From: a virus
Taxonomy: Duplodnaviria; Caudoviricetes
Length of the DNA stretch: 52,930 nt
Direction: 5' to 3' (one strand)
Virus record (IMG/VR): IMGVR_UViG_3300024305_000003
Span: 1 to 52,930 of that record
The notes below the pieces were generated by a model that did no database searches, had not been told where the DNA came from, and saw only the letters and a list, made by a program, of their open reading frames with translations. The translations under genes and the position numbers were made by a program. Of this stretch, positions 6,512 to 35,492 are shown piece by piece. The stretch's first letter is position 1. Every line of letters begins with the position of its first letter.

Positions 6512-7093
6512 CTAAATTTTCAATCTGCGGACGGGGCGCACCAGATACGCATCGGTCTTGCCGTAGTTGTACTGGGAGCCATCGCTGAAGCGCTGGATCC
6601 AGGCGCGGTAGGTGTTGGGAGCGTACTCAGTCGAGGTCCAATACCATTCGCCATCCTTGAATGACTCCGGGGCGTTGATCCACGCCAGCGCGAGCTCTGC
6701 CTTGGATGGCAGGTAGAAGTCCCCGAAATCGCCCTGCTTGAAGGCAGCGGCATATTCGGCGGCCGGGTGATCACTTTCAGCGAGCAGCGCTCGGGTATTG
6801 CTGGCGCCGTCGCGCAGGCTTGAGGCGCTCGACTTCTTGCCGTAGCCACCCCATTCCAGCTCTGGATCCTCATGCTCGACGGGAACGATGAGATGCCAGC
6901 GCTCGCCGTTGTCATGCATCACGCCGGCGTAGATGCCGCCTTGCTCTGGCCACATCTGCCCTGGGGAGTGGGTGGTCGGGCAGTCATTGCGGGTCGCGCT
7001 GGAGAGCTCGATCTCAAGCGCGACCCTGATCAGCTCCGGGTTGTCAGTGATGATTCTGGTGTTTCCTTCGGTCAGTTCGATGAGGCGGCTCAT
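6512..7093 (-). CDS. Remote DGR target protein 2: stand-alone C-type-lectin-fold (DUF1566/Lcl-like) protein
   Basis: 193 aa with [25 protein letters not shown] and VRPVRR motifs. The C-terminus contains VR2. Paralogous to the C-terminal domain of 32131..33645. Confidence 0.9.
6523..6634 (-). repeat. DGR variable region VR2
   Basis: 112-nt ungapped match to the TR (34258-34369) with 10 mismatches, all opposite TR adenines. Confidence 0.96.
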
Positions 7094-7148
7094 GTGACGG
7101 GCTCCTTGCTGGCGTAAATATGGTGTGCGTGACGCATTGGCGTGACGG

Positions 7149-7418
7149 CTAGGGTGTTTTGATCAGGTCGGCATGGACGGACGGCGCTTGCTGGCTTAGC
7201 CGGTACGCTCCGTGGATCAGGCGGGTTATAAAGTCTTGGGGCTCGTCGATGCCGGCCCGCCCCATCATCTCCACAAGCTTGGCGTCGGTGCCCTTGAACA
7301 AATCGAGCTTGATCGAGCGGGAGAGGAGGCGGGCCAGCCGCTCTTCCTCGGCGAGCTTGTCGCGCTCGCGCTTCTCACGCTGGCGGTCAGTGGCGGACTT
7401 GGCTGTCATGCGCGGCAC
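7149..7418 (-). CDS. Hypothetical protein
   Basis: Packed ORF with a basic N-terminus; the start may be 7409. Confidence 0.55.
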   Translation of the reverse strand: MPRMTAKSATDRQREKRERDKLAEEERLARLLSRSIKLDLFKGTDAKLVEMMGRAGIDEPQDFITRLIHGAYRLSQQAPSVHADLIKTP

Positions 7419-7819
7419 CGCCCGTCGTCGCGCAGTTCTATGCCGTACTTGGCAGCGATCTGCTCCACCATCACGGTGTTGAGCTTGAAGCCTTGCCCTT
7501 TGAGGGCCTTGTAAATCTCGTAGGAGGTGCGCCCGATGGGGCCGTGCTCCGTCTCGATGACGGCCAGGTCGGCGATGCGCCCAGCAAGCTCGGCCTGTTG
7601 CCGCTCCTGCTCGCGGCGCGCCTTTGCCTGGCGGGTGATGCTGGTGTTCCAGCAGGACGGCTTCTGCGGTGCACGCTCGGCGTGGTCGAGCCGGGTGATC
7701 GATCCGCCGCCCGCCAGAAAGGCGCCGACATGGACAAGTAGGGCGCGGCGATCCGTCTCCCGGCCCGGCGGGGTCGGAAGGTTGAGTGTGGTGAGGTGGT
7801 GCATGTGAGTCTCCGTCAA
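7406..7819 (-). CDS. Hypothetical protein
   Basis: Contains AFLAGGGSIT; the start may be 7804. Confidence 0.55.
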   Translation of the reverse strand: MTETHMHHLTTLNLPTPPGRETDRRALLVHVGAFLAGGGSITRLDHAERAPQKPSCWNTSITRQAKARREQERQQAELAGRIADLAVIETEHGPIGRTSYEIYKALKGQGFKLNTVMVEQIAAKYGIELRDDGRCRA

Positions 7820-7853
7820 GGCGCCCTGTGCGGGCGCCGAATCGGGTGGAAGG

Positions 7854-9575
7854 TCAGGCGGCGATGCGCTGCTCGATGTTGCCGATGTGGGCGATCAGGC
7901 TTGTGCAGATGCGGGCGAAGTCCGAGGCGCGGTAGAGCACCGTGGCCCGGTCGCGACCGACCGGCTCGATGCCGATGCTGCGCAGGAAGTCGGCGGTCAG
8001 CGAGAAGCCCAGGCGGGCATTGATGTCGCCCAGCTTGATGCGCTGGCCGTCGTCTGCCGGCTGCAGGGTGGCTGTTGCGGTCGGGTGCAGGTCGAGCGTC
8101 CGGGTCAGTTCGGCGACGAACACCGTGTCACTGATTTCTGCGGCCGGCTGTGGTGGCGCTTCGGCGGCCAGGCGTTCGCGCTCTGCGGATTGCTCGGCCT
8201 GCTCCTTGCCGGCCTGCTCGCGCGCCAAGGCGGCGCGCTCTTCCTCGCGGATGCGCTCGCGCTCGGCTTCGGCGCGGGCCTCGGCCTTGGCTTTCTCCTC
8301 GGCTTCGTGCTCGGCGATGCGGCTCTTGATGATCGCCTCCAGCGCCTCGTTGTCCTTGAGCACCAGGTGCTGGGTATCGCTGAACAGGAAGGCATGGTCG
8401 GCGGCCAGAGTGCGCAGGCTGGCCAGGTTGGTTTCGATGGCTTCGGCGGCGGCGTTGGCTTCGATCTTCAGCCGGGCCAGTTCGGTATCGGCGGCGTCCT
8501 GCAGGGTGGCGATGGTGCGCTTGCCCTTCATCACGCCGGCGAAGTCGGCGCGGATCGGTGGCAGTTGCACCTTGCCCAGGCGCTTGTTGATCGCCCCGAC
8601 GTGGGCCGCGAAGGCGCTCTCCGCGCCCATCTTGATCTCCAGGCGGCGCTGCTCTTTCATCGCCTTGACCAGCTTGTCCAGCTCCAGGCGCGTGCTGCGG
8701 GCTTCGGCGGTGATGTCGTCGATCGCGCTGAACAGCCGATCGATGCTCTCCGTCTGGCTCAGGGCGTGCTGCTTGGCGGCCTTCAGCCGGTCTTCGACAT
8801 CGCCGCACCACTTCACGGCCTGCTCGGCATCGGCAAAGTCCTGATCGGTGACCAGATCGCGATTGATCGCGCCGATCACGTCCAGCGCGTGCGCCTTGAA
8901 AGCGTCTAGGTTGCTGTTGGTGACCATGCCGGTGACTTCGATGCGCAGCGCTGGCAGCGTTTCCGGGGTGCGGCCCACGGTCTTGGGCGCGGCAGGCGCC
9001 TCGGGCTCGAAGGAGGCCAGGTCTTCCTCGAACTGCTTCCAGCCCGCGAGGATCTGCTCGATGCGGCCGGGCACCGGGCGGTACTCGAGGTGATGGAAGT
9101 TGTCCTCGGTGCCGTCCGAGCAGACGAAGATCGCGCGCTCGGCGCCTGAAACGTGCAGTTGTTGCTCCAGCTGGACCCAGTAGTGCGCTTCCAGCTCGCC
9201 GGCGGCGATCTGCTGGATCAGTGACTGATTGAGCGCCTTGTGCTCGAACAGGGTGTCGCCGAGCATCGTCATGCCGTCCATGCTCGCCAGCAGGCCGCCG
9301 CGCGTTCCGACCACCGGGTAGAGGTCTTCGCCGATCATGCGTTCGACGATGGGCCGCGCCGCGGCCTCGGTGGCGTGCCCGTTATCGAACAGCCGCTGGG
9401 TAGCGGCGTCGACCTCAGGCGCCAGGCCTGTTTTCTTCTGTTGCAGCAGGTCGCTGCGGCTCTGGTACTTGGAGACGCCGAGCATGGCCGGCGCTTCGGA
9501 GGCAGTGAAGTACTCCGCGCGCAGGGCATGCCACTCTGGCGAGCCCTGCTGTACGTCGTGGATGGTCATGTTCAT
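7854..9575 (-). CDS. YqaJ-like viral recombination exonuclease with long C-terminal coiled coil
   Basis: QGSPEWHALR, TASEAPAMLG, ASMDG and FEHK PD-(D/E)xK motifs. Confidence 0.88.
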   Translation of the reverse strand: MNMTIHDVQQGSPEWHALRAEYFTASEAPAMLGVSKYQSRSDLLQQKKTGLAPEVDAATQRLFDNGHATEAAARPIVERMIGEDLYPVVGTRGGLLASMDGMTMLGDTLFEHKALNQSLIQQIAAGELEAHYWVQLEQQLHVSGAERAIFVCSDGTEDNFHHLEYRPVPGRIEQILAGWKQFEEDLASFEPEAPAAPKTVGRTPETLPALRIEVTGMVTNSNLDAFKAHALDVIGAINRDLVTDQDFADAEQAVKWCGDVEDRLKAAKQHALSQTESIDRLFSAIDDITAEARSTRLELDKLVKAMKEQRRLEIKMGAESAFAAHVGAINKRLGKVQLPPIRADFAGVMKGKRTIATLQDAADTELARLKIEANAAAEAIETNLASLRTLAADHAFLFSDTQHLVLKDNEALEAIIKSRIAEHEAEEKAKAEARAEAERERIREEERAALAREQAGKEQAEQSAERERLAAEAPPQPAAEISDTVFVAELTRTLDLHPTATATLQPADDGQRIKLGDINARLGFSLTADFLRSIGIEPVGRDRATVLYRASDFARICTSLIAHIGNIEQRIAA

Positions 9576-10339
9576 GCGTCGGTTACCTCGAGGTCGCGGA
9601 TGGCTTGTTTCTGCTCGTCGGTCAGCACGACCTTCGAAGCGGACATCTTGATGATGCGATCGGCGGTGGTTTTGCCGCCCTCGATCAGGTCTTTCCAGTC
9701 GGCCAGCTTGGTGGCGAACTCGGTGTCGTCGTAGGCGGGGAGGCTGGCCGGCTGCTGTTCCAGCGATTTGCGTTCGGCGGGCTGGCTGGTCCGAATCGCG
9801 CCCATGTCGCGCTCTGCCGGCATGTCCTGAACTTCCTCGGCGACCGGCATACCGCGCAGCACGTCGGGGAAGACGTCACGCAAGGCGAAGGCTCGCGCCC
9901 GCATCTGGCGCATGCGCTTGGGGTGCTGGGTCCAGGGGCCGGACTTGCCGGTCAGCCCGGCAGTTTTCGCGTCATCCATGCTGAAGGTACGGACCTGCTC
10001 GTCCTCGCCGCGACGCTTCACGCGGCAGGTGGCAATGTGGCCGTCATCTGTCTCGTAGATGTATTCGCAGAGCGGCGAGCCGCGCACCAGGGCGATCACT
10101 GCGTCGCCCCACAGCGCCGGGCGCCCGTTGATCACTGCGATGTTCTGCATGGCCTGCATCGGCTGCAGGCCAAGCTCAAGACCCCACTGGATGGCCACCA
10201 GGATGTTGCCGGGGTTACCGCTGAAGTCCTTGGGCACGATGCTGGACTTGGCGAGGATGTCGGCGAAGCGCATGGCCTCGTCGAGCGATTGGGGCGTGAG
10301 GCTGAACCCCTTGGCGGGGGATACGGCGATATCAGTCAT
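9572..10339 (-). CDS. recT: RecT-like single-strand annealing protein
   Basis: GLELGLQPMQAMQNIAVINGRP and GPWTQHPKRMRQMRARAFALRDVFPD; coupled to the exonuclease gene. Confidence 0.78.
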   Translation of the reverse strand: MTDIAVSPAKGFSLTPQSLDEAMRFADILAKSSIVPKDFSGNPGNILVAIQWGLELGLQPMQAMQNIAVINGRPALWGDAVIALVRGSPLCEYIYETDDGHIATCRVKRRGEDEQVRTFSMDDAKTAGLTGKSGPWTQHPKRMRQMRARAFALRDVFPDVLRGMPVAEEVQDMPAERDMGAIRTSQPAERKSLEQQPASLPAYDDTEFATKLADWKDLIEGGKTTADRIIKMSASKVVLTDEQKQAIRDLEVTDA

Positions 10340-10398
10340 CGTGTTCTCCAGGCACGCAGCCCCCTACGGGCTTGCGCATTGGTCAGGTGGGTGGGCGG

Positions 10399-10711
10399 TC
10401 AGGAAAAGGTGTGTTCGATAATCAGCCGCCCGGCGAGCGCCAGGCTGAAGAGGCTCACTGCGGCGAAGCCGCCGCAAAGCAGCAGGGCGCGCTCGGTCAT
10501 CCGGTGATCTCCCCTGCGAGCGCGCTCAGGTAGACCCAGCCGGTGAACACGGCCAAGGCGATCGCGAAACCTCGCCAGAAGGCGTAGCGCTTGGCGCGCT
10601 GGTAGCGGGTCATATGCCCCCCAGCAGGCCCACATGGACCAGATAGGCAAGGAAGGGGGCGACAACGAACAGCAGGCCGGCGCCACCCGCGATTTCCTTC
10701 AGGGCATGCAT
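10399..10711 (-). CDS. Three coupled small hydrophobic ORFs (10610-10711, 10497-10613, 10399-10500)
   Basis: 33-38 aa each, each with one TM-like stretch; linked by ATGA start/stop overlaps. Confidence 0.5.
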
Positions 10712-11121
10712 GGCAGCAACTCCCGGTGGCGGTATGAGAAGGCGCTGCTGCGCAGCTTGCTGAGCCGATCGAACACCGGCAGCGGGATCACGCCAAAGAC
10801 CAGCGCCGCGGTGATCATTCCGTCCGCAAATCGGTCCCGGTACAGCAGGGCCTCGAGGTTCTCCGCGTCGCGAATGGCGTGGAGCTGGAACGCGATCCGG
10901 GCGAACCCGCATTCGGTCGGGTTGCTGCTGGTCCTGGCCCGCATGTCTTGAGCGAGCCGGTTCGCGACGCGCACAGCCTTGGCCTTGCGGAGTGACTCTT
11001 GCAGTCGCTTTTCAAGGGTGCGCTCTTCCGTTTGGCTCAGATACTTGGCCGCAGCCCCATAGTTGCCCGCGCTCGCGCGGTCGCGGTTACGCGCCGTATA
11101 TACGTGCTGTTGATTGCTCAT
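10699..11121 (-). CDS. Hypothetical basic protein, first gene of the leftward operon
   Basis: 140 aa, GAGGGA RBS, Arg/Lys-rich. Confidence 0.6.
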   Translation of the reverse strand: MSNQQHVYTARNRDRASAGNYGAAAKYLSQTEERTLEKRLQESLRKAKAVRVANRLAQDMRARTSSNPTECGFARIAFQLHAIRDAENLEALLYRDRFADGMITAALVFGVIPLPVFDRLSKLRSSAFSYRHRELLPCMP

Positions 11122-11536
11122 TGCAGTTCCCTCGCTGTCTGCGCCAATCAGGCAGCCGCCTCCTTCATCGCAGGACCAGTGCTATGAATTGGAATGGAAG
11201 AGGCTGTCTCGATGGGCGCTTGGGTAGATGATTGCCGCGCTCACCTGCTGGGCTCTTGCGCGGCTAGTCGTTCTGGTTGTCAGGCCGGGGTTACAGGCCA
11301 CCTCCGGCTGGGCTCAACTTCGCTGCTTTGCACTGTCCCGGTGTTGCGCCTCATCTTGGCTCCGGCAGGGAGTGCTCGCCGCGCGTCTCGGGGGCTGCTG
11401 ATTCCAGTCGCATCAACAGGTCGAGCCGGCATGGTCACCAGAGCCATGCGTGGGACGGGGTTCACCCATCGGTAGCAGTCGTTTTATCCGCCGTCGCTCA
11501 GGCAAAAGCCTGTCGGGACTGCTGGCGGGTTCGGCA

Positions 11537-12116: not shown

Positions 12117-13004
12117 TCAGGCGCAGCGCTCGCGCCACCAGCCAACAGTCAGGTCGGCCAGTTCGCCAGTGTTGCCGGCCTCGATAACCTCGATGCCTGT
12201 CGCGCGAATGCGATCGATCTGCCTGCGGGTGACGGCATCGTGCTTGCGGAACTCCAAGCTGGTCAGGCCGCTGTCGGCGCGGGGAACCAGAACCGATATG
12301 GCGGCGGCCTGGCGGTCGGAGTTGCTGCGGATGAGGTTCAGGTCAGCTGAAGCCTGCAGCAGATTGATCTCCACCACCAGAGGGCTCTTATACCATGCCG
12401 AAACGATGGTTCCGGATGCGCTGGCGCTCAGCAGAGGAACGTCCATCTCGATGCGATGCCCGCTGGAGCGTAACGGCAGCTGGAAGCGCTCGGTCTGGAT
12501 GATGCGAGAGGCCTGCATGTGCATCCGTTGCTTCATCAGATCGAACACCGAGGAGCGGAGCTTGGGCGTGGACTGATAGCGGAATGCATATTCCTGGGCG
12601 CCTTGGCGGGGCCGGCCAAGCGTGACAACGTCGTGATAGAACTCATCAACGACCGCCTCGGCGCTTACGCCAGATGCGAACAGTGGAGCGCCAAGCCGTA
12701 TGGTGTCGCTGAGCATGTCCGGGAGGTCCGCGCCGGTGTCCATGATCGACGCTTCGATGTCGTAGAGCAGGTGGGCCAGATCGTTATGATCGATACGGTC
12801 CTCGTATAGGCACTTGAGGCGATCGAAGTTATCGAGCATCCGCACCTCTACGCTGCCGGCATGGGTAAACATGACGCCTACATTGAGGAACTCGCCAGAG
12901 TCTTCGTCCAGGCAAACGCTGATCGGCCGCCAGTACCCTTTGACGACAGGAGTATCTGAGCGCTTCTCAGTTAATCGGGAGCGTAGTCGGGCGACTGCGT
13001 TCAT
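12117..13004 (-). CDS. DUF3037-like partner of the HipA-like kinase
   Basis: N-terminal DEDSGEFLNVGVMF motif; ATGA overlap with the kinase gene. Confidence 0.6.
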   Translation of the reverse strand: MNAVARLRSRLTEKRSDTPVVKGYWRPISVCLDEDSGEFLNVGVMFTHAGSVEVRMLDNFDRLKCLYEDRIDHNDLAHLLYDIEASIMDTGADLPDMLSDTIRLGAPLFASGVSAEAVVDEFYHDVVTLGRPRQGAQEYAFRYQSTPKLRSSVFDLMKQRMHMQASRIIQTERFQLPLRSSGHRIEMDVPLLSASASGTIVSAWYKSPLVVEINLLQASADLNLIRSNSDRQAAAISVLVPRADSGLTSLEFRKHDAVTRRQIDRIRATGIEVIEAGNTGELADLTVGWWRERCA

Positions 13005-13879
13005 ATCAAATGGCCTGCCGCCTTGGCGTAGGATGCGGGATCGAGCAAATCTTGCAGCAACTGGATGATGGCGTCGATGTCGATCTGCTCGAAGAACTCA
13101 GACAGCACTTGCCGCGCTGCGTTCTCGCCATCCTGCCGGAAGCTCACTGCAAAGCCATTATATGCCATGACTCGAATACCCGAGTTGGGCAGCTTCTCGC
13201 TCCAGTGCGGGTTGTGCAGGTCGATCAGCCACTGGAGCCTGTTTATGCATGGGTCGGGGAAGGTGCCGGTGCGCCCGGGCGTCCAGTTGGGGAAGTTGAG
13301 GATGCGCCCGTGATCGATGAGCGTCAGGCTGTTTGGCCCGGACGCAAGTAAGTTGCCCGCGTTGCGGTCCGAGTTCATCAGCCAGCCATCGAACGCGATG
13401 ACCTTGGGCGAGTCCGGGTTCTTGGCCAGCTCTAGTGAAAGGCGCTTCAGGCGCCGGTCATGCAAAGAGGTCAGCTGCGCACCACTGAGGTGCCGCTGTT
13501 TAAGGCTCGGGAACTGCATGTCCTGGCTGAACCAGCAGAAGTAGTCTTTCTGCTGATGGCGCCCTGCAGCCTTGTCCAGCTCAGGCCAGAGCGAAGCTGG
13601 GATCTGCTCTCGGTCAAGCATGATGATGCCGGCCGTAGACGGAACGGTCAGCCCACAGGACTTGGCGAGCACGTGGCCTAGCGCCTCGTTGATCAGCTCC
13701 TGGTTGGCTACGTACCGCCCTGTAGTCGGGCACTGGATCTGGTCGGTGAGCGGCTTTACGTAGCAGCGAATCGAGCCGGCCGCGGTGCGAACCTTGGCTC
13801 TGAAAATCGGACTTATCCCCTTGCTCGCCGGTTCGCGGAGCGTACCCCCAAAAGCGTCACTGCTTAGAATTTCGATCAT
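13001..13879 (-). CDS. HipA-like Ser/Thr kinase
   Basis: CYVK lysine, INEALGHVLAKSCGLTVP helix, catalytic loop FDGWLMNSDRNAGNLL, Mg-binding LIDHG. Confidence 0.85.
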   Translation of the reverse strand: MIEILSSDAFGGTLREPASKGISPIFRAKVRTAAGSIRCYVKPLTDQIQCPTTGRYVANQELINEALGHVLAKSCGLTVPSTAGIIMLDREQIPASLWPELDKAAGRHQQKDYFCWFSQDMQFPSLKQRHLSGAQLTSLHDRRLKRLSLELAKNPDSPKVIAFDGWLMNSDRNAGNLLASGPNSLTLIDHGRILNFPNWTPGRTGTFPDPCINRLQWLIDLHNPHWSEKLPNSGIRVMAYNGFAVSFRQDGENAARQVLSEFFEQIDIDAIIQLLQDLLDPASYAKAAGHLI

Positions 13880-14393
13880 CGGCCTTCAGTTTTCCCCTGA
13901 GCTTTTCATAGCTTCCCGCCCGGCCTTTTGCGTGCTCTGTCGGCGCGCTTTCGAAACGAGCAGCGATGCGATCCAGTAATTGCACGTCTTCATCCGTAAG
14001 CCGGCCCTGAGCGGCCGCCCGTGCGATTCTTTCCAGGGCGCGGCGCGAGCGCGGCGTGGTGATCATTGCGAGCAAGTTGGCCTGCTCTGCGGTAGCCGAC
14101 CGAGCTGGGCTGTCTTCGCCGACGCATGACTCCGTATTTTCGGCAGGCGCAACCATGGCGCCCTCGCCGTACTGCAGCCACTCAACGCGCACGCCAAGCT
14201 CATTGGCGATAGCAACCATGTTGGCGCGACCTGGCATGGACTCTGCGTTCCACCACTTGCTCGAAGCCTTCGGGGTTTTTCCTGTCATTTCCGCGAGGCG
14301 AACGCCAGCGCCCCACTCGGGAATGCCGGCGTGAGCTAGAGCTTTTTTTAAGCGAGCGACAAATTCGCTACGCAGATCATCCGACTGAACCAT
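13857..14393 (-). CDS. cI: CI-like repressor (XRE HTH), no S24 peptidase domain
   Basis: HTH (LAEMTGKTPKASSKWWNAESMP...LGVRVEWLQYGEG); divergent from cro. Confidence 0.8.
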   Translation of the reverse strand: MVQSDDLRSEFVARLKKALAHAGIPEWGAGVRLAEMTGKTPKASSKWWNAESMPGRANMVAIANELGVRVEWLQYGEGAMVAPAENTESCVGEDSPARSATAEQANLLAMITTPRSRRALERIARAAAQGRLTDEDVQLLDRIAARFESAPTEHAKGRAGSYEKLRGKLKADDRNSKQ

Positions 14394-14457
14394 AGGTTCA
14401 ATATCCCACGCGCTTGCGTGTACTTTCAGTACCGGCATAATATGTACCTTAAGTTCA
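14386..14457. promoter_or_regulatory. OR operators (14386-14400, 14419-14433, 14443-14457) and PR (TTGCGT 14414, CATAAT 14436)
   Basis: TGAAC-CATAG-GTTCA, TGTAC-TTTCA-GTACC and TGTAC-CTTAA-GTTCA lie between cI and cro. Confidence 0.75.
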
Positions 14458-14478
14458 TAAATGCTCGGAGACCTCGTG

Positions 14479-14874
14479 GTGAGCGCATTAAAAGAAGCCA
14501 TCAATAAGCTCGGAGGGGTTGCGCAGGCAGCAACTCTATGTGGGGTAAGCCAGCGGGCAATCTACAAATGGCTGAGCTCAGGAACCCTTCCTCGCACTGA
14601 ATACACGGGTGAAACCCATTACGCCTCCCGGCTCGCTGATGCGTCCGCTGGCCAGTTCACCGCCGAATGGCTGCTTGCTGAGGCAGCCCCAACGAAGACG
14701 GCGACCCAGCAGGCCAGCCCTAAGCCTGCCCAACAAGGCGAACGCCGAGCCCCGCGCAAACCAGCCGACCGCCGCGGCCGTCGTGAAACCGATCTATCCA
14801 CCCAGGAAGCCAGGGAGCTGCTGGAGAGCGCCGAGAAGCTCGCCGGCACGCTCCAGCGCATCGCCAAGGACTGA
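14479..14874 (+). CDS. cro: Cro-like HTH regulator
   Basis: AINKLGGVAQAATLCGVSQRAIYKWL; GTG start (14476 or 14479) after GGAG. Confidence 0.8.
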   Translation: MSALKEAINKLGGVAQAATLCGVSQRAIYKWLSSGTLPRTEYTGETHYASRLADASAGQFTAEWLLAEAAPTKTATQQASPKPAQQGERRAPRKPADRRGRRETDLSTQEARELLESAEKLAGTLQRIAKD

Positions 14875-18645: not shown

Positions 18646-18765
18646 ACTACGCACATGCGAACGCTGCGCAAAACCAGGCGGCACGCGCCGTTGAGAAGAA
18701 AAACACTGAATCACTGCGTACGCAAAGTGCGCAATTTGTACGCACTGCGCAATAGGGGAAGGGAT

Positions 18766-19443
18766 ATGCGACTGATCACAGCACGCCAGGCTTGGCGCGA
18801 TTCGCAGTATGAGTCTCGCGGCTCGATTACGGCCGCAACCATGGACCACGCGAAGATCGAAACAAAGCGCGCCGCTGCGAAGCGCAAGACAATCGAGGCA
18901 GTGTTCGCGGCCGTGGGTGACGAGGAGGAAAGTAGGGTCAAGGTCGTGGCGCAGCGAATGGAAGTGCAGGAGACGCGCCGTTCTGCCCGGGACAACAGTT
19001 CGTCGCGGTGCGCTCACATGATGACGATGGGGCGTATCCAGCACGCAATCGCCTCGCTGAACAAGCCGCTGCAGCACTTCGGGCATTACCTCTACTCGCC
19101 GTTGGCCAATGCCCGCGATCAGGATGTTGCGCGCACGCTGGTTTGGTTTGGCTGGGAAAAACCGGCCGGGCTGACGAAAGTGAAGGAGTCGCGAGCGTAC
19201 TGCCTGGTGTTGCCGGCGCTGATGTCATATCAGGGGGTCGTGACAGGTGGGCGTGACGAGTGGACGCCGGGCCGCATCGCCGAATTTGTCGCCGACTGGT
19301 ATGGCGAAAAGATCACCGTCAGCCAATGGTCACGTGACTGGGCCTCGATCTGGGAAAGCCTGCAGCGTACGATCGGTGAGATCGACCAGAAGGCGCTCGA
19401 TCCTGTGGAGTCGGCACTGGAGCAAGCGTTAAGCGCGGCATGA
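18766..19443 (+). CDS. Putative Q-like late antiterminator
   Basis: Last early gene before the late promoter/terminator and lysis genes. The function call is mainly positional. Confidence 0.5.
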   Translation: MRLITARQAWRDSQYESRGSITAATMDHAKIETKRAAAKRKTIEAVFAAVGDEEESRVKVVAQRMEVQETRRSARDNSSSRCAHMMTMGRIQHAIASLNKPLQHFGHYLYSPLANARDQDVARTLVWFGWEKPAGLTKVKESRAYCLVLPALMSYQGVVTGGRDEWTPGRIAEFVADWYGEKITVSQWSRDWASIWESLQRTIGEIDQKALDPVESALEQALSAA

Positions 19444-20070: not shown

Positions 20071-20289
20071 TTGGTGGCGTTTGTGTCCGCAGCCAGGGCG
20101 GCCTTTGGGAGAGCCTGGACATTCCCAGCCGGCGGTGGGGTGGTCATTGAAAAACACCGGCAGCCCGCGCGGGCCAGTTCCTACCCTACGGGGGCTCGGC
20201 GCGAGGGCGATCAGCTGAGACTGGTGCATTGGGGTGCCAGCGGCAGATAGCTCTTTGGCAGACAGCGCGGAAAGACGTGCACAACTTTC

Positions 20290-28860: not shown

Positions 28861-28863
28861 GCC

Positions 28864-30146: not shown

Positions 30147-30551
30147 ATGTCCGCTTTTTCTGATTATCTTGAAAACAAGCTTGCCGACGTGACGCTGCGT
30201 GGCGGCACCTACTCAGGTGGTGCCGTGTTCATCGGTCTCTTCACCTCTGACCCGACCGATGCCGGAACGGGTGCCGAAGTGGCGGATTCCGCTTACCAGC
30301 GGCAGCAGGCGCACACCACCGTCACTTCCGACGGCTTCACTGCGCCGGCGAACGGGGCTTGCAGCAACACACGCACCATCGTCTTCCCGGCCATCGTGGA
30401 TGCGCAAACCACGGTCACCCACTGGGGCATCTTCGATGCTCAGGCTGCCGGAAATCTGCTGTACCACTCGGCAATGCTTAACCCGAAAACCCTGGACCCG
30501 ACTGACGTGGTGTCCTTCCCGATCGGCTCGCTCTCTGTCGTGCTGAGCTAA
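30147..30551 (+). CDS. Virion structural protein (fibre-associated)
   Basis: SDYLENKL...LFTSDP...YQRQ...THWGIFDA...GNLL pattern. Confidence 0.6.
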   Translation: MSAFSDYLENKLADVTLRGGTYSGGAVFIGLFTSDPTDAGTGAEVADSAYQRQQAHTTVTSDGFTAPANGACSNTRTIVFPAIVDAQTTVTHWGIFDAQAAGNLLYHSAMLNPKTLDPTDVVSFPIGSLSVVLS

Positions 30552-30555
30552 GCCC

Positions 30556-31815
30556 ATGCACCTGTTCGGTAGGTCGCTACTAGGGGGCGCGCTTGTTGCG
30601 GGGTATGTCACCGTATCAGGAGTGGCGGCCTGTAGCGCCACCGCAACAGGCGAGGCGCAGGTTCACTACAAAGGGGCGGGGCTTGCAGAAGTCAGCGCAT
30701 CCGCTTTCGGCGAAGCGCTTCGCGACGCCTCGACCCAGGGCAACGCCGCACAGGCTATCGCCCAAGCCGCTGCGCAGCCTGTAGCGTTCTACCGCGCCGC
30801 TGGCGTAGCGCAGGTCAGCTCCCTGGCTCAGGGCGCTGCGCAGGCCTCGTTCTTTGGCGAAGGTGTGGCGCAATCCGATGCCTACGCAGCAGGCCGCTTG
30901 CAGCGGCGTGTACGCATGCCGTTTCAGCCGCCAGCCAAGGCGGTCGCTTCAGCCCATGGCGAAGTTGTCAGCTACGTGCTGGCCTACGGTCGCCCGGCGT
31001 ATGCTCGAGCAAGGCTGGTGGGCACCACCTACCACGTCGGGCGAGGTGTCGCGCAAGCGACTGCCGCCTTGTTCGGTGATGCGCAAAAGCAGATCGGGGG
31101 GCGCCAGTTCGCTCACGCGCAGGCATCAGCGTTCGGTACTCAGGTGTATATCGCCGGCGCCGCCGGCAACGGCATGGCCATCGCAGAGGCCAATGCCGAC
31201 GCTGCCGTGACGAAAGGAGGTGTTCGGCACTTCGAGCTGTTCGGAACGGCCAGGGCAACCGCCCAGGCCAGCCTGAGCCATGTGTTGATCTACCAGCCCC
31301 AGGTCATGCGCGCCGTCGCTCACGCTTACGGTTGCGCCGTACAGATTCGCGGATTCGCCGGGAAAGGAATCGCCACGGCCAAAGCGACCGGCTACATGGA
31401 CATGACCTATACCGGCCAGGAAGGCGAGCCCGCATCGGTCACCGCAACGGCAAGCGGCTACGGTGTTCGGCACGTTTTCGCGGCCGGCATGGCGAATTGC
31501 ACTGCGCAAGGCTTCGGCAGCGCCATCGCCGAGTTCCGTGCTGCTGGCAGTGCAGTCTTGGCCGCAGAGGCGCAAGCCCGGACGATGCATCTCATGCTTG
31601 CCAATCAACCCGCTGCTGAAGCCTTGGCCACTACCCGCGGGCGAGCGCAGCGGATCGTCATCGCCGGCGGCGTCACCGCTCAAGCTGTTGCCGAGGCATC
31701 TGGCTACAACCAGATCAACGACCTATCCAAAGCGCCTTCTTCTCGCACGGTGATGGTCGCTTACGCCGGCCGAGTGAGCGCCATCGAGGCCGAGCCTCGC
31801 ACAATCAGGATTTGA
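30556..31815 (+). CDS. Ala/Gly-rich putative fibre/structural protein
   Basis: 419 aa, repetitive A/G composition. Confidence 0.55.
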   Translation: MHLFGRSLLGGALVAGYVTVSGVAACSATATGEAQVHYKGAGLAEVSASAFGEALRDASTQGNAAQAIAQAAAQPVAFYRAAGVAQVSSLAQGAAQASFFGEGVAQSDAYAAGRLQRRVRMPFQPPAKAVASAHGEVVSYVLAYGRPAYARARLVGTTYHVGRGVAQATAALFGDAQKQIGGRQFAHAQASAFGTQVYIAGAAGNGMAIAEANADAAVTKGGVRHFELFGTARATAQASLSHVLIYQPQVMRAVAHAYGCAVQIRGFAGKGIATAKATGYMDMTYTGQEGEPASVTATASGYGVRHVFAAGMANCTAQGFGSAIAEFRAAGSAVLAAEAQARTMHLMLANQPAAEALATTRGRAQRIVIAGGVTAQAVAEASGYNQINDLSKAPSSRTVMVAYAGRVSAIEAEPRTIRI

Positions 31816-31816
31816 G

Positions 31817-32134
31817 ATGGACGTATTTTCCAAGCAGCCAAATGACGTCCTGGATTACGACGTTGACCTGACCGACTGGTTTGCCGATATCGCGGACGAC
31901 GATATCGAGTCGGTCGAGATTACCGTCGCCAGCACAGCGGAGCCGGTACCGGCATTGGTGCTGGGCCCGGCGCCGCACAATCCCTACGTTCTGCTGGGCG
32001 CAAGCCCGCAGCGCTTCAAGCTGTGGCTGGGGGGCGGCACGCACTTCGTCGATTACATCGTGACCTGCGTCGTGCGCACCGAGCAGGACCGGGTTAAAGA
32101 AGTCGAGTTCAAGATCAAGGTGCGTGACAAATGA
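31817..32134 (+). CDS. Putative fibre adaptor
   Basis: KQPNDVLDYDVD...WLGGG...GD/RVKEVEFKIKV pattern. Confidence 0.55.
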   Translation: MDVFSKQPNDVLDYDVDLTDWFADIADDDIESVEITVASTAEPVPALVLGPAPHNPYVLLGASPQRFKLWLGGGTHFVDYIVTCVVRTEQDRVKEVEFKIKVRDK

Positions 32135-33645
32135 GCTATGCCAATTTCGTAGAAACGCAGCTGGACGGGCCGTTGACGGCTGAAGGCCTTAGCCTGCTGC
32201 TTCAGCCTGCTCAGGCGCCATACCAGCTACCGCCTGCTGACGGCGGCGTGCTCGTGCTGGCGGACAGCATGGGCAAGCCTGCCGCTGTGGAAATCATCCG
32301 CTATGCCGCGCGTGACGGCCTGACCCTCACCGGGCTGGAGCGGGGGCTCGAAGGGACGGTTGCGCTGAACTGGCCCGGCAACAGCTACTGCTATCAGTCG
32401 CTGACGGCGGGCGGCTTCGAGGCGGTAAAAGAGATCATCGATGTCCATGTCGCCGACCAGAACCCACACCCGCAGTATCTGGTTGCCGAATCCGCCGTAA
32501 GCCTCGAAGGCCCGACCGGCATCTACATTGCGCAGAGCGTGCAATTCCAAATCACCGACTACGACGTGTTCAGTGGCTACCTGGTCCAGGTCTCGGCCGG
32601 CACCGCCAGCATTGCCGGCAGCACGATCAGTTTCACCGCGCCCATGGAGGCGGGCAGCGTGACGCTGACCGTATTCGCGGGCGACTACCGGCGCGACATC
32701 ACGCTGGAGATCCTGCCGGAGCGCCCTGCGGCGCCGGTCATCACATCACCGGAAGCCACCGGCGTCATGGGCAACCCGACGCTATCGACCGGCCCCTTCG
32801 CCCTGATCGGGCCGAACACCGACACCCATGCGGCGACCGACTGGGAAATCTGGACGGGGGCAGGGCGCACCGGGACGCTGGTCTGGTCCTCGCTGAACAA
32901 CTCCACCAGCAAGCTGAGCATCACGCTGCCGGAAAACACGCTGACCGTCGCGACGGACTACCACATGGCGGTTCGGCACATTGGCACAACGTTCGGCGCG
33001 GGCGAGTGGGCAGAGCTGGCGTTTCGGACGGCTGATCAGTTCCTGCCGACCGTCATCGGGCAGGCCTTTGGCGGCGGGTTCTACGCGGGCAAGATCCGCT
33101 ACGCCGATGGCGACTACATCATTATCGTCGCGCCCAAATCTGCCGAGGCCACTCTGGCTCACAAGACGGCGAACAGCGCGACCGCTGGGACGTCGAGCTA
33201 TCACGACGGCCTGGCGAACAGCAACAGCATGAACAACGCCACGCACCCGGCGGCCCAGTATTGCCGCGCCTACAACGGTGGCGGCTTTACCGATTGGCAC
33301 CTGCCCGCGCGCGACCAGTTGGAGTTGTTGTATCGGAACCTCAAGCCAGACACTACGGCGAACATCACTGGCTCGCGCGCCGAGGCCGGCAACCATGGTG
33401 ATAACGCCAACAGCGTCCCGGTTGGCGCTTCGTATACGACCGGCAGCCCGGCCCAGACATCGGCCGCAGCGTTCAAGACGGGCGGAGCCGAGGCATTCGC
33501 AGTGCCTACCTGGTACTGGACCTCGACTGAGTACGCTCCCAACACCAGCGCCGCCTGGGTCCAGCGCTTCAGCGATGGCGGCCAGAGCTTCAGCAACAAG
33601 GCCGTTGCGTATCTGGTGCGCCCCGTCCGCAGATTGAAAATTTAG
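32131..33645 (+). CDS. DGR target protein 1: tail-fibre/receptor-binding-like protein with C-terminal CLec (DUF1566-like) domain
   Basis: 504 aa in the tail module; Ig/FN3-like middle; C-terminal WHLPARDQL, WYWTST and VRPVRR; contains VR1. Confidence 0.88.
   Translation: MSYANFVETQLDGPLTAEGLSLLLQPAQAPYQLPPADGGVLVLADSMGKPAAVEIIRYAARDGLTLTGLERGLEGTVALNWPGNSYCYQSLTAGGFEAVKEIIDVHVADQNPHPQYLVAESAVSLEGPTGIYIAQSVQFQITDYDVFSGYLVQVSAGTASIAGSTISFTAPMEAGSVTLTVFAGDYRRDITLEILPERPAAPVITSPEATGVMGNPTLSTGPFALIGPNTDTHAATDWEIWTGAGRTGTLVWSSLNNSTSKLSITLPENTLTVATDYHMAVRHIGTTFGAGEWAELAFRTADQFLPTVIGQAFGGGFYAGKIRYADGDYIIIVAPKSAEATLAHKTANSATAGTSSYHDGLANSNSMNNATHPAAQYCRAYNGGGFTDWHLPARDQLELLYRNLKPDTTANITGSRAEAGNHGDNANSVPVGASYTTGSPAQTSAAAFKTGGAEAFAVPTWYWTSTEYAPNTSAAWVQRFSDGGQSFSNKAVAYLVRPVRRLKI
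33523..33634 (+). repeat. DGR variable region VR1
   Basis: 112-nt ungapped match to the TR with 13 mismatches, all opposite TR adenines. Confidence 0.97.
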
Positions 33646-33661
33646 CCTTTGACCCTTTGAT

Positions 33662-33679
33662 GCCCGCGCTTGCGCGGGC
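33662..33679 (+). promoter_or_regulatory. DGR target-1 downstream hairpin (GCCCGCG-CTTG-CGCGGGC)
   Basis: Perfect GC stem 16 nt after the stop codon of the VR1 gene. Confidence 0.75.
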
Positions 33680-33698
33680 TAGAGCCTGCAGTTTGCAC

Positions 33699-34109
33699 AT
33701 GTCCAAATCGAAAAACCTGCCGATCTACCGCGCCAGCTACGAGTTGTTGAGCCTGGTCACCGAGCTTATTCGTCACTTCGCCCGCGACTTTCGCCCATCG
33801 CTGGGTCAGCGCCTGCACAACGAGGCCGTACTGCTGGTGCTGATGATCTATCGCGCCAATGCGGCGGAGGACAAGCTGCCCTACATCGGCAAGCTGCTGG
33901 AAACGCTGCAGGTGGTGGAGATGCTGCTGCAGCTGTCCGCTGACCTCAAGCTGATCAGCCTGAAGCAATACGCCCGCTCCGCAGAGCTGACCGCCGATAT
34001 CGGCAGGCAGGCTGGCGGATGGCAAAAGTTCGCCGCGAGCGGTAACGCCTCGCGCAAACATCATGTCAGCAGGCTCAACGCGTCGCCCGCTGCTGGATTG
34101 CCACGGTGA
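33699..34109 (+). CDS. avd: DGR accessory variability determinant (four-helix bundle)
   Basis: NLPIYRASYELL...FRPSLGQRL...IGRQAGGWQK; lies between VR1 and the TR. Confidence 0.88.
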   Translation: MSKSKNLPIYRASYELLSLVTELIRHFARDFRPSLGQRLHNEAVLLVLMIYRANAAEDKLPYIGKLLETLQVVEMLLQLSADLKLISLKQYARSAELTADIGRQAGGWQKFAASGNASRKHHVSRLNASPAAGLPR

Positions 34110-34257
34110 TCCTTCCCGCGCGATTTATCTGGTTGCGTCCCTGGGCTGCGGCCCACGACAGGCCCTTGCGAAACCGCTGCACCATTGCAGCAGGTCTACG
34201 GGCAGTTTCCCGGCTGATCGGCACACGCCTTCGGCTGGGCGACGTGAAGACGCAACT

Positions 34258-34369
34258 TCGACTGAGTACGCTCCCAACACCAACAACGCCTGGATCCAGC
34301 GCTTCAGCGATGGCAACCAGAACAACAACAACAAGACCAATGCGTATCTGGTGCGCCCCGTCCGCAGAT
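34258..34369 (+). ncRNA. DGR template repeat (TR)
   Basis: Non-coding, AAC-rich copy of both VRs (33 A, 9 AAY codons) between avd and RT; diverges from the VRs after CCGCAGAT (IMH*). Confidence 0.96.
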
Positions 34370-34391
34370 AACCCCGCAGGGGCCTGCTGAC

Positions 34392-35492
34392 ATGACCCCA
34401 ACCATGGAAGAAATCGTGGTCGCCTACAGCGACTGCAGGAAAGGCAAGCGCAACACCGACAGCGCGATCGCCTTCGAGCTGCGCCTGGCGCGCAATCTGT
34501 GCCGGCTGCGCGATGACCTGGCGTCCGGCCGGTACCGGATCGGCGCGAGCCGCTGTTTCGTGGTCACCAACCCGAAGCCTCGCGAGGTGTGGGCTGCTGC
34601 GTTCCGTGACCGAATCGTCCACCACATTATGTACAACCGGATCGCGCCGGCTTTCGAGGCCTCGTTCTCGGCGGCAAGCTGCGCCTGCATCCCGGGTCGT
34701 GGAACGCTGTACGGCGCCAAGCGGCTGGAGCGCCAGGTTCGCAGCGTTACGCAGAACTGGTCTCGCCGCGCCTACTACCTGAAGCTGGATCTCTCGAACT
34801 TCTTCGTGTCGATTCATCGGCCGACCCTGTTCGGGCTGCTCGAGCCGAAGCTGGGTAGCGGCTGGACCCGAAGCATTACCGAGCAGATCCTTTTTCACGA
34901 TCCGCTTCCAGAGGTCGACGTGCGCAGCCCGCCTGAGCTGATGGCCCTGGTTCCTCGACACAAGAGCCTGTTCCACGCAGCAGAAGGATGCGGCCTACCA
35001 ATCGGCAACCTGTCGTCGCAGTTCTTCGCCAACGTCTACCTGAACGCCCTGGACCAGTTCATCGGGCACCGAATCAAGCCGAAGGGCTACATCCGCTACG
35101 TCGACGACTTCATCCTGCTGCACGAAAGCACCGAGTGGCTGGCCGAGGCCAAGGGGCGCATTGAGGCGTTTCTGGACTCGCGCCTGCGGGCCGCAATCAA
35201 CCCGACCAAGACCGTACTGCAGCCAATCGATCGCGGCGTCGATTTCGTCGGCCAGGTCGTAAAGCCGTGGCGGCGCGTCCTGCGGGGCCGGATGTTGCCG
35301 TCCGCCATCCGCCGGGTTGCCGCGGCTGGGGATCCGGACTCCCGACGCAGCAGCGCCAACAGCTACCTCGGCCTGATGCGCCAGTGCGGCGCCTTCCGAG
35401 AGCGAGCAGATATCGCACGCCTCATGCTGCGCCACGGGCACCCCGTTGACGCCAAGTTTACCCGCGCCTACGCGCACGCTGGAGACCTGTAA
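34392..35492 (+). CDS. DGR reverse transcriptase
   Basis: 366 aa; FRDRIVHH, LKLDLSNFF, GLPIGNLSSQFFAN (DGR-type SQ), YIRYVDDF and GVDFVG; uninterrupted. Confidence 0.96.
   Translation: MTPTMEEIVVAYSDCRKGKRNTDSAIAFELRLARNLCRLRDDLASGRYRIGASRCFVVTNPKPREVWAAAFRDRIVHHIMYNRIAPAFEASFSAASCACIPGRGTLYGAKRLERQVRSVTQNWSRRAYYLKLDLSNFFVSIHRPTLFGLLEPKLGSGWTRSITEQILFHDPLPEVDVRSPPELMALVPRHKSLFHAAEGCGLPIGNLSSQFFANVYLNALDQFIGHRIKPKGYIRYVDDFILLHESTEWLAEAKGRIEAFLDSRLRAAINPTKTVLQPIDRGVDFVGQVVKPWRRVLRGRMLPSAIRRVAAAGDPDSRRSSANSYLGLMRQCGAFRERADIARLMLRHGHPVDAKFTRAYAHAGDL

What the first reader, a model, noticed from the sequence alone, without database searches (positions are those of the whole stretch)
6512..35492. 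One DGR with two targets about 27 kb apart, on opposite strands and in different transcriptional programmes
Seen: the TR (34258-34369) aligns without gaps over 112 nt to VR1 (33523-33634, 13 mismatches) and to VR2 (6523-6634, minus strand, 10 mismatches). All 23 mismatches fall opposite TR adenines. The two VRs share only one substitution: [24 protein letters not shown] becomes NTSAAWVQRFSDGGQSFSNKAV in VR1 and [22 protein letters not shown] in VR2. They were therefore mutagenised independently rather than copied from each other. Established: adenine-specific mutagenic retrohoming by RT plus Avd (Bordetella BPP-1 paradigm); multi-target and remote-target DGRs exist. Inference: this phage diversifies a late virion adhesin and an early-operon protein from the same template. 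That is outside the usual tropism-switching picture, and tools that look only near the RT would miss VR2.
Basis: partly seen in the sequence, partly recalled or inferred. Interest (0 to 1): 0.92.

Follow-up and report, generated by a model that had tools for sequence, protein, structure and literature searches.

The report
Phage DGR with two separated targets
A prophage of a Pseudomonas-like bacterium carries a mutagenic retroelement whose single template rewrites both a tail-fibre gene next to it and a small lectin-like gene 27 kb away among the early genes, a real but already known type of arrangement.

Summary
TR 34258-34369 aligns without gaps to VR1 33523-33634 (13 mismatches) and to VR2 6523-6634, minus strand (10 mismatches). 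All 23 mismatches lie at TR adenines.

The cassette is a complete DGR: Avd, RT-15 RNA, TR, and an RT with IGNLSSQ and YVDD.

VR1 ends a 504-aa tail-fibre-type protein. VR2 ends a 193-aa, signal-peptide-less C-type-lectin protein. Its gene lies between RecE/RecT and NdpA/methylase/integrase genes on the opposite strand.

In close relatives the VR2 protein varies at 12 of 22 adenine-bearing codons, 0 of 15 adenine-free TR codons and 18 of 156 other residues. VR1 behaves the same way.

The novelty is overstated:
- Non-adjacent targets inside one prophage were reported in 2018 (PMC5758913).
- In 50 of 73 related loci, small DUF1566 genes in the early operon are the usual targets of this RT clade, with Avd-TR-RT beside them.

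What is unusual here is the split. One target paralog plus Avd-TR-RT sits in the fibre module, and the other paralog stays in the early operon.

Activity and the function of the small protein remain untested.

The parts
34258..34369 (+). Template repeat (TR). 33 adenines; 7 AAC and 1 AAT codons in the frame of the targets.
34081..34262 (+). RT-15 RNA motif (Rfam RF03018). Full-length match that abuts the 5' end of the TR; presumed structured 5' part of the DGR RNA.
   Evidence: 116.3 bits, gathering score 82. The same motif is annotated between Avd and RT in phage Cruim01.
34392..35492 (+). DGR reverse transcriptase, 366 aa, with IGNLSSQ and YVDD motifs.
   Evidence: Translation; Pfam RVT_1; PHROG 1423, 1.6e-99; 32% identity to BPP-1 Brt.
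33657..34109 (+). Avd accessory protein. The ORF is called from TTG at 33657; the family matches begin near residue 15, so the true start is probably the ATG at about 33699.
   Evidence: Pfam bAvd, 42 bits, cut-off 40; PHROG 3206 'Avd protein of DGR', 1e-28.
33523..33634 (+). VR1, 13 adenine-site differences from the TR.
32131..33645 (+). Target 1, 504 aa. The N-terminal ~300 aa are shared with phage tail-fibre proteins. The C-terminal ~200 aa is an Lcl_C/DUF1566 C-type-lectin domain. Its start overlaps the stop of the GP4 gp77-like fibre-tail adaptor gene.
33662..33679 (+). Perfect 7-bp G+C hairpin with CTTG loop, 28 nt after the end of TR homology of VR1.
   Evidence: The same loop is present at 19 of 50 Avd-proximal VRs of relatives.
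6523..6634 (-). VR2, 10 adenine-site differences from the TR.
6512..7093 (-). Target 2, 193 aa. An N-terminal beta-hairpin plus helix is followed by an Lcl_C/DUF1566 C-type-lectin fold. No signal peptide is visible in the sequence.
6478..6498 (-). Imperfect 9-pair hairpin (one G-T pair, loop GCA), 25 nt after the end of TR homology of VR2. It is followed by CTTTTCC, so it also reads as terminator-like.
6507..6522 (-). 16 nt identical to 33635-33650 and absent from the TR. This is the VR-specific 3' flank, in the position of the IMH/IMH* difference.

Best explanation
This is a functional diversity-generating retroelement in a lambdoid, GP4/SU10-like podophage provirus. The host is probably Stutzerimonas stutzeri.

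Proposed mechanism:
- Avd, an RT-15/TR RNA and the RT are made from the fibre module.
- TR-derived cDNA with random bases opposite the template adenines replaces the last ~110 nt of two genes.
- One gene is the adjacent tail-fibre gene (VR1).
- The other, acting in trans 27.6 kb away and in inverted orientation, is a 193-aa cytoplasmic-looking C-type-lectin gene (VR2) in the leftward early operon, between recE/recT and ndpA/methylase/int.

The two targets belong to two paralog classes that this RT clade normally diversifies side by side. In most relatives both small targets and Avd-TR-RT sit together in the early operon. Here one class is fused behind a fibre N-terminal part and travels with Avd-TR-RT, and the other stayed among the early genes.

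Shown:
- the repeat anatomy;
- the family assignments;
- adenine-codon-restricted variation of both targets in relatives;
- TR-to-VR1 co-variation at non-adenine sites.

Inferred:
- present-day homing into VR2;
- early versus late expression;
- the virion location of target 1;
- any function of target 2.
For: **Anatomy**
- All 23 mismatches lie at TR adenines, and all 79 non-A positions are identical in both VRs.
- The target genes are otherwise only about 30% identical as proteins.

**Complete machinery**.

**Target-site features**
- There is an invariant 3' stretch, a VR-specific 16-nt flank and a downstream hairpin at both VRs.
- In relatives such hairpins follow 40 of 50 Avd-proximal VRs and 17 of 71 other VRs, against 27 of 356 control windows.
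- For BPP-1, a hairpin after the VR is required and target orientation does not matter (PMC3240598, abstract and passages).

**Variation in relatives**
- VR2 protein, 7 sequences: 12 of 22 A-codons vary, 0 of 15 non-A TR codons, 18 of 156 elsewhere (Fisher p 5e-6).
- VR1 protein, 6 full-length sequences, with two members that have other N-termini dropped: 13 of 22, 0 of 15, 36 of 467.
- P0002, P0123 and P0124 are identical outside the VR yet differ at 10 or more VR codons.

**TR-to-VR flow**
- The TR of G001 differs from the window's at non-A positions 15 and 84. Its VR1 carries both changes.

**Same architecture elsewhere**
- In runs X4 and X5, contigs of 25,751 and 26,400 nt start at VR2 and end in an inverted VR copy.
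- Loose ends matching the TR flanks appear in X2, X4 and X5, and VR1 flanks in X2 and X3.

**Family context**
- 50 of 73 loci carry Avd-TR-RT with 1-3 adenine-specific VRs in small DUF1566 genes.
- RecT/RecE, a methylase or an integrase lie on the same strand.
- Cultured phages phPA-G, Cruim01, Magia and Haboob show the same layout.

**Operon context in the window**
- The window has a cI-like and a cro-like divergent pair, O/P, a Q-like gene and a Proteo-phage-1 RNA ahead of the lysis and structural genes.
Against: - No read-level or experimental evidence of homing at either VR was obtainable. All runs offered were assembled contigs, which hide within-population variants.
- The VR2 hairpin is imperfect (a G-T pair) and fails the perfect-stem criterion that VR1 passes. 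Non-proximal VRs of relatives often lack a clear hairpin (54 of 71).
- DNA of the close VR2 relatives could not be fetched, so their adenine specificity is seen only at codon level. One relative (P0123) has Tyr to Ala at residue 183, which needs a non-adenine change relative to this TR. P0124 has a one-residue insertion in the VR.
- That the VR1-type and VR2-type proteins of relatives share contigs rests on equal contig lengths (51,699; 219,454; 741,454). It was not seen in sequence.
- Early and late expression is inferred from synteny only.
- The quick RT tree places the window lineage as sister to the early-operon clade, not inside it, with SH-aLRT 88 and long outgroup branches. The direction of the rearrangement is therefore open.
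Confidence: 0.85

Rival explanations
1. VR2 is a relic. It was diversified when a cassette lay beside it in the early operon, as in relatives, and is no longer a target of the TR now in the fibre module.
For: - In 50 of 73 related loci the cassette lies next to the small targets.
- The VR2 hairpin is imperfect.
- Orphaned targets exist. G002 keeps a VR1-type gene with a 23-aa Avd stub and no TR or RT.
- 12 of 15 genomes whose small DUF1566 loci lack an RT have no such RT found with this query.
Against: - VR2 matches the present TR at all 79 non-adenine positions, including positions 15 and 84, where TRs of relatives differ.
- Proteins identical outside the VR carry different VR2 alleles.
- Relatives that hold VR2 also hold the inverted VR1 about 26 kb away and a TR.
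Confidence: 0.1
2. The likeness of VR1, VR2 and the TR comes from ordinary recombination or gene conversion among three repeats, not from retrohoming.
For: Three 112-nt repeats within one genome could recombine. VR1 and VR2 also share 16 nt beyond the TR homology.
Against: - Every difference lies at a TR adenine (p 1.7e-8 and 1.6e-6).
- The two VRs share only one identical substitution.
- Conversion would copy substitutions and would not respect adenines.
- The same pattern recurs in 50 independent loci.
Confidence: 0.02
3. The 27-kb separation is an assembly artefact: a chimeric contig joined at the repeats.
For: Assemblers break and may misjoin at these repeats. Contigs of all four runs end at the VR.
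Against: - The record is a coherent lambdoid genome, from integrase to structural genes, rated 100% complete.
- Contigs from two separate studies span VR2 to an inverted VR copy at 25.7 and 26.4 kb.
- Unique flanks continue on both sides of each repeat.
Confidence: 0.02

Closest known systems
Bordetella phage BPP-1 DGR (mtd, avd, TR, brt)
   Same: - Avd plus RT, and adenine-specific TR-to-VR differences.
- The VR lies at the 3' end of a C-type-lectin-fold receptor-binding gene in the tail module.
- There is a hairpin after the VR.
- RT identity is 32% (PMC3240598, abstract and passages).
   Different: - The window has a second target 27.6 kb away, in inverted orientation, among the early genes.
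- The target domain is of the DUF1566/Lcl_C class, not the Mtd class.
- The structured RNA (RT-15) lies 5' of the TR.
- The hairpin loops are CTTG and GCA rather than the GRNA consensus quoted for BPP-1-like elements.
Phage-associated DGRs with one adjacent and one non-adjacent target in the same prophage (Wu et al. 2018, PMC5758913)
   Same: This is exactly the logic seen here: targets within 50 kb of the RT, one beside the cassette and one not. Short DUF1566-only targets are described as about half of that target class (section 13 and passages).
   Different: The text read does not say in which operon the non-adjacent targets lie or what they encode. Its supplementary table could not be read, so whether this element or close kin is already listed is unknown.
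Early-operon DGRs of Pseudomonas and Burkholderiales temperate phages (Magia, phPA-G, Haboob, Cruim01, plus 50 genome loci)
   Same: - The RT clade is the same (52-59% identity).
- The RT-15 RNA is shared.
- Both small-target paralog classes are present.
- Multi-target cassettes occur, with a further VR 2.6-8 kb upstream in 25 of 50 loci.
- Magia's authors noted possible targets in short genes 47 and 57.
   Different: In those elements Avd-TR-RT lies in the early operon beside the small targets. Here it lies in the fibre module, with one target class fused to a fibre. In the quick tree the window's RT is sister to that clade, not a member of it.
Faecalibacterium Toutatisvirus DGR with a VR 17,480 nt from the TR
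   Same: One TR serves an adjacent target and a distant target within one phage genome (bioRxiv 10.1101/2024.10.15.618418, passages).
   Different: Both Toutatisvirus targets are read as receptor-binding or structural proteins. Here the distant target lies among recombination and early genes.
Legionella pneumophila DGR target LdtA and the Lcl C-terminal domain
   Same: Same VR and domain class (DUF1566/Lcl_C). The best structural match of the VR2 protein model is the Lcl C-terminal domain 8q4e (PMC5758913 passages).
   Different: LdtA is a surface lipoprotein of a cellular element. The window's 193-aa protein shows no signal peptide or lipobox in its sequence and is phage-encoded.

Membership tests
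Diversity-generating retroelement (DGR) | Reverse transcriptase of the DGR type: YxDD catalytic motif and the (I/L/V)GxxxSQ motif. The motif definition is recalled, not taken from a call. | tested here: met
   IGNLSSQ and YVDD are visible in the translation. RVT_1 and PHROG 1423 match. tblastn hits annotated DGR RTs, including BPP-1 Brt.
Diversity-generating retroelement (DGR) | Accessory variability determinant (Avd) next to the RT. | tested here: met
   Pfam bAvd, 42 bits against a cut-off of 40. PHROG 3206, 1e-28.
Diversity-generating retroelement (DGR) | A TR/VR pair that differs only at TR adenines. | tested here: met
   13 of 13 and 10 of 10 mismatches lie at A. p = 1.7e-8 and 1.6e-6.
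Diversity-generating retroelement (DGR) | The VR lies at the 3' end of an ORF and encodes the variable face of a C-type-lectin (or Ig) fold. | tested here: met
   Both VRs end 11 nt before their stop codons. Lcl_C matches both proteins. The AlphaFold model of target 2 has pLDDT 91 and its best PDB match is the Lcl C-terminal domain, followed by C-type lectins. Target 1 was not modelled.
Diversity-generating retroelement (DGR) | Target recognition elements: an unmutated 3' segment, a VR-specific flank (the IMH versus IMH* difference) and a downstream hairpin. | tested here: inconclusive
   Both VRs have the invariant 3' 23-29 nt, a shared 16-nt flank absent from the TR, and a hairpin. VR1's hairpin is perfect and VR2's has a G-T pair. 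The BPP-1 (GC)14 element is not evident, and the function of these elements was not tested.
Diversity-generating retroelement (DGR) | Demonstrated mutagenic retrohoming: new adenine-site variants that depend on the RT. | not testable with these tools
   Only comparative proxies are available: adenine-codon-restricted variation in relatives and TR/VR1 co-variation in G001.
Early-operon small-DUF1566 DGR clade of Pseudomonas and Burkholderiales prophages (defined here) | Avd-TR-RT lies in the leftward early operon, directly downstream of its small targets. | tested here: not met
   The window's Avd-TR-RT lies at 33.6-35.5 kb on the + strand, inside the fibre and tail genes.
Early-operon small-DUF1566 DGR clade of Pseudomonas and Burkholderiales prophages (defined here) | Targets of the two small paralog classes, plus the RT-15 RNA. 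| tested here: met
   The VR2 protein matches one class. The VR1 protein matches the other from about residue 309 (median start of alignments). RT-15 is found in the window and in Cruim01.

The most novel reading that the evidence does not exclude
The conserved business of this RT clade may not be host-range switching at all. Its recurrent targets are small C-type-lectin proteins without a signal peptide, encoded among early or lysogeny-side genes. They lie downstream of cI and next to recombination, methylase and integrase genes. That would make them a phage-made repertoire of hypervariable intracellular binders, for instance against host defence proteins or superinfecting phages.

On this reading the window is a natural hybrid. 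The same TR writes one paralog as a free early protein and the other as the tip of a tail fibre. It links the tail-fibre DGRs with the early-operon DGRs in one genome. It also offers an internal control for asking what the early target is for.
Probability: 0.3. Interest if true: 0.8.

Novelty: new member of a known kind. Interest (0 to 1): 0.5.

Why it matters
DGR biology in phages is usually told as tail-fibre tropism switching. This element is an ordinary DGR mechanistically, and its split layout has precedent.

It does draw attention to a large, barely discussed set of temperate-phage DGRs, including ones in Pseudomonas aeruginosa prophages. One 90%-identity cluster there holds 194 sequences, and the 12 aligned differ almost only in the VR. 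Their targets are small non-secreted-looking lectin-fold proteins in the early region.

This phage couples such a target and a fibre to one template. It is therefore a convenient system to test whether early-region targets are really diversified in trans, when that happens, and what they bind.

Tried and rejected
- **Near-DNA search of the phage collection.** The cassette found nothing. The VR2 region hit only NdpA genes of F116-like phages.
- **The search for related loci with the single VR2 protein.** It found no relatives in viral contigs or metagenome contigs.
- **Exact 28-nt pattern.** It found only cassette fragments (G001, G003, L095) and one orphan VR (G002). None contained a VR2-type gene. 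DNA of the closest VR2 relatives was therefore never seen.
- **Earlier findings of this scan.** None were found.
- **Supplementary table of PMC5758913.** It could not be read.
- **PADLOC.** 0 of 12 early-region and cassette-flanking proteins matched a defence model. This gives no support for, and no evidence against, a defence role.
- **Sequence search of the PDB with target 1.** No match.
- **Read laying.** Only contigs were available, so within-sample variation could not be assessed. The difference table was cut (176 rows not shown). The six VR2-region differences listed all fall at TR-adenine positions, but they mix TR, VR1 and VR2 contigs, so I do not count them as a test.
- **RT tree.** The careful tree search did not finish, and only the quick tree is reported. 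One outgroup (Bacteroides phage F2) landed inside the ingroup on a 7.45-long branch, so the rooting is weak.
- **Not run.** Structure prediction of target 1 and any complex prediction.
- **Literature.** Searches found no paper that analyses early-operon DGR targets as such. The library misses most subscription journals, so this is not proof of absence.
Full report
**1. Observation**

MAFFT aligns TR (34258-34369, +), VR1 (33523-33634, +) and the reverse complement of 6523-6634 in 112 gap-free columns.

A script count gives 13 TR/VR1 and 10 TR/VR2 mismatches. All 23 lie opposite TR adenines, of which the TR has 33 in 112 nt. The hypergeometric chance of that is 1.7e-8 for VR1 and 1.6e-6 for VR2.

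Only position 82 has the same substitution in both VRs. Positions 28, 29, 58 and 59 are changed in both but to different bases.

The window is a whole IMG/VR provirus record of 52,930 bp, rated 100% complete. A BLAST of the TR against it finds these three copies only.

Upstream of the repeat the two target genes are unrelated at DNA level, apart from the codons for WYWT.

Downstream, VR1 and VR2 share 16 more bases (last three codons, stop, 5 nt) that the TR lacks. Each then has a G+C-rich hairpin 25-28 nt further on:
- VR1 has a perfect 7-bp stem with loop CTTG.
- VR2 has 9 pairs including one G-T, with loop GCA.

The VR2 hairpin is followed by a T-run and is also picked up as terminator-like.

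**2. What surrounds the repeats**

Pfam and PHROG scans of 47 ORFs chosen by GC3 give a lambdoid layout.

On the minus strand, from the immunity region leftwards:
- a weak cI-like ORF (13857-14504);
- a HipA_2-like ORF;
- RecT (9572-10339);
- a RecE/YqaJ-like exonuclease (7854-9575);
- two small ORFs;
- the VR2 gene (6512-7093);
- NdpA (5436-6506);
- a C5 methylase (3237-4958);
- the integrase (1-1050).

On the plus strand:
- a cro-like ORF;
- replication O/P-like genes, NinB and RusA;
- a Q-like gene (18655-19443);
- an Rfam Proteo-phage-1 RNA at 20087-20165;
- spanin, terminase, SU10-type portal and adaptor, and capsid;
- GP4 gp80-like fibre and gp77-like fibre-tail adaptor genes;
- the VR1 gene (32131-33645), whose start overlaps the adaptor's stop;
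- Avd, the TR and the RT;
- further tail genes and a 2739-aa polyvalent protein.

The RT shows IGNLSSQ and YVDD. Avd passes Pfam's bAvd cut-off narrowly (42 bits against 40) and matches PHROG 'Avd protein of DGR' at 1e-28.

A full-length RT-15 RNA (RF03018, 116 bits) spans 34081-34262 and abuts the TR.

So 'early operon' for VR2 and 'late operon' for VR1 and the cassette are well founded by synteny. No transcript data were seen.

**3. The two targets**

The VR2 protein (193 aa) matches Lcl_C/DUF1566 just under Pfam's cut-off (34.8 bits against 34.9). It matches PHROG 4245 at 1.6e-31, and the VR1 protein's C-terminus matches the same PHROG.

Its AlphaFold model, built from a 69-sequence alignment, has pLDDT 91.3. 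It shows an N-terminal beta-hairpin and helix followed by a domain whose best PDB match is the Legionella Lcl C-terminal domain 8q4e. C-type lectins follow in the ranking (sequence profile hit).

I see no signal peptide or lipobox in the sequence. This was judged by eye, not with a predictor.

The first 310 residues of the VR1 protein have 53 homologs at E <= 0.001. Some carry other fibre modules instead of or beside Lcl_C: a phage tail-collar fibre domain, Peptidase_S74 or YadA repeats. One is named phage tail protein by its source. Close relatives keep residues 122-504 but swap the first ~120 residues.

That is the behaviour of a modular tail fibre. Virion location itself is inferred.

**4. 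Is VR2 a live target?**

It is not invariant.

The search of 5.8 billion proteins found 296 relatives of the VR2 protein. The closest clusters hold six distinct sequences. One is identical to the window's and comes from a 741,454-bp contig.

Across the 7 aligned rows, the variable columns are 12 of the 22 codons that contain an adenine in the TR, 0 of the 15 TR codons without adenine, and 18 of the other 156 residues (Fisher p 5e-6).

P0002, P0123 and P0124 are identical outside the VR yet differ at ten or more VR codons.

The VR1 protein behaves alike in 6 full-length rows: 13 of 22, 0 of 15, and 36 of 467. Two cluster members with different N-termini were dropped from that count.

Two oddities argue for caution. 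P0123 has Tyr183Ala, which needs a non-adenine change relative to this TR. P0124 has a one-residue insertion in the VR.

At DNA level, the TR of fragment G001 differs from the window's TR at non-adenine positions 15 and 84, and its VR1 carries both changes. This is the signature of TR-to-VR copying. The window's VR2 matches the window's TR at those positions.

**5. Same architecture elsewhere**

Twenty public runs hold part of 5400-9600, but all are kept as contigs only. I laid four runs from four studies on 6000-7600:
- Contigs break at the repeat.
- In X4 and X5, single contigs of 25,751 and 26,400 nt begin at VR2 and end in an inverted VR copy. In the window, VR2 and VR1 are 26.9 kb apart.
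- Loose ends equal the window's TR flanks in X2, X4 and X5.
- Loose ends equal the window's VR1 upstream flank in X2 and X3.
- In X2 the flanks match at 1 difference in 487 and 1 in 586 letters, while the piece covering 6557-6923 has 9.

Contigs cannot show within-sample variation, so present-day activity remains unshown.

**6. The wider family changes the picture**

A profile scan of one genome per species returned 73 loci with small homologs of the VR2 protein. Most are from Pseudomonas, and others are from Burkholderiales and a few further taxa.

In 50 of the 73 loci an Avd and an RT (52-59% identical to the window's) lie downstream on the same strand. The inter-gene TR matches 1-3 VRs with almost only adenine-site mismatches, all in genes of about 150-200 aa. 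In 25 of the 50, a further VR lies 2.6-8 kb upstream.

RecT and RecE homologs often sit between the VRs, and a methylase and an integrase follow on the same strand.

Cultured phages show the same layout:
- P. aeruginosa phages phPA-G and Haboob: cI-like repressor, a few genes, target(s), Avd, RT.
- P. syringae phage Cruim01: RT-15 annotated between Avd and RT.
- Burkholderia phage Magia: nuclease, RecT, target, target, Avd, RT, then integrase.

The small targets fall into two paralog classes:
- One class resembles the VR2 protein.
- The other resembles residues ~309-504 of the VR1 protein.
- The VR1-like class is the Avd-proximal target in 21 of 50 loci and the second target in 8 of 49.

Hairpins starting 24-42 nt past the VR follow 40 of 50 proximal VRs and 17 of 71 other VRs, against 27 of 356 control windows. 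Loop CTTG recurs on three different stems.

Many small DUF1566 genes are orphans. Of 15 genomes whose locus lacks an RT within 10 kb, 12 gave no hit to this RT.

In P. aeruginosa one 90%-identity cluster holds 194 sequences. The 12 aligned differ almost only in the VR.

**7. Most likely history and mechanism**

The window keeps the clade's two-paralog target set but splits it. The VR1-like domain, Avd, RT-15/TR and the RT form one block inside the fibre genes, with the domain fused behind a fibre N-terminal part. The VR2-like gene sits where the clade's targets normally sit.

Which layout is older is open. In a quick maximum-likelihood tree of 61 RTs, the window, G001 and G003 are sister to the 56-row early-operon clade (SH-aLRT 88). 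The outgroup branches are long, one outgroup is misplaced, and the careful search was unfinished.

Mechanistically I take it to work as in BPP-1. There, avd, TR and brt act in trans, a hairpin after the VR is needed, and target orientation does not matter (PMC5758913 section 13; PMC3240598 abstract and passages).

**8. Comparison with what is known**

- PMC5758913 reports 45 of 372 DGRs with non-adjacent targets. [quoted passage not shown] It describes about half of the DUF1566-class targets as short.
- A Toutatisvirus DGR has a second VR 17,480 nt from its TR.
- The Magia announcement notes possible targets in short genes 47 and 57.
- PMC8144416 states that its approach misses remote targets.

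The split itself is therefore not new. I found no paper that discusses early-operon location or the role of such targets. That library lacks most subscription journals, and the 2018 supplementary table could not be read.

**9. Verdict**

This is a genuine, complete DGR with two targets: confidence about 0.85 for the overall account given as the best explanation, including VR2 as a current target, with about 0.1 on VR2 being a relic and higher confidence that the DGR itself is real. It is a new member of a known kind.

Its interest lies in the family it points to and in the natural pairing of a fibre target and an early, apparently intracellular target under one template.

Noticed in passing
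window 20087-20165 (+): Rfam Proteo-phage-1 RNA (65 bits, gathering score 42). It lies between the Q-like gene and the lysis genes, at the likely start of the late transcript.
   Followed up: no
window 30556-31815 (+): A 419-aa Ala/Gly-rich ORF that looks repetitive by eye and has no family match. It lies between the GP4 gp80-like fibre and gp77-like adaptor genes. It is a candidate 'rope' protein of a chain-like fibre, as described for GP4 in PMC13730344 (passages).
   Followed up: no
window 12117-13879 (-): A HipA_2-like kinase ORF (below Pfam's cut-off) and a 295-aa partner lie directly downstream of the cI-like gene. This is the position of lysogen-expressed exclusion genes in lambda. There are no PADLOC matches.
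   Followed up: partly
G002 (L088-L090), about 48.6-49.8 kb: A different 52,173-bp provirus carries an 89%-identical copy of residues 122-504 of the fibre target with a VR, plus a 23-aa stub of Avd. It has no TR or RT: an orphaned DGR target.
   Followed up: partly
P0004 and P0014 clusters (P. aeruginosa): Clusters of 194 and 43 near-identical 194-aa DUF1566 proteins from P. aeruginosa genomes. Twelve members of the first were aligned and vary almost only in the VR. This suggests active early-operon DGRs in prophages of that species.
   Followed up: partly
window 44130-52349 (+): A 2739-aa polyvalent protein with InPase, LPD1, LPD5 and LPD38 domains at the end of the structural region.
   Followed up: no
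window 33657-33699 (+): The VR1 hairpin (33662-33679) lies inside the Avd ORF as called from TTG at 33657. The family matches start at residue 15, so Avd more likely starts at the ATG near 33699 and the hairpin is intergenic.
   Followed up: partly
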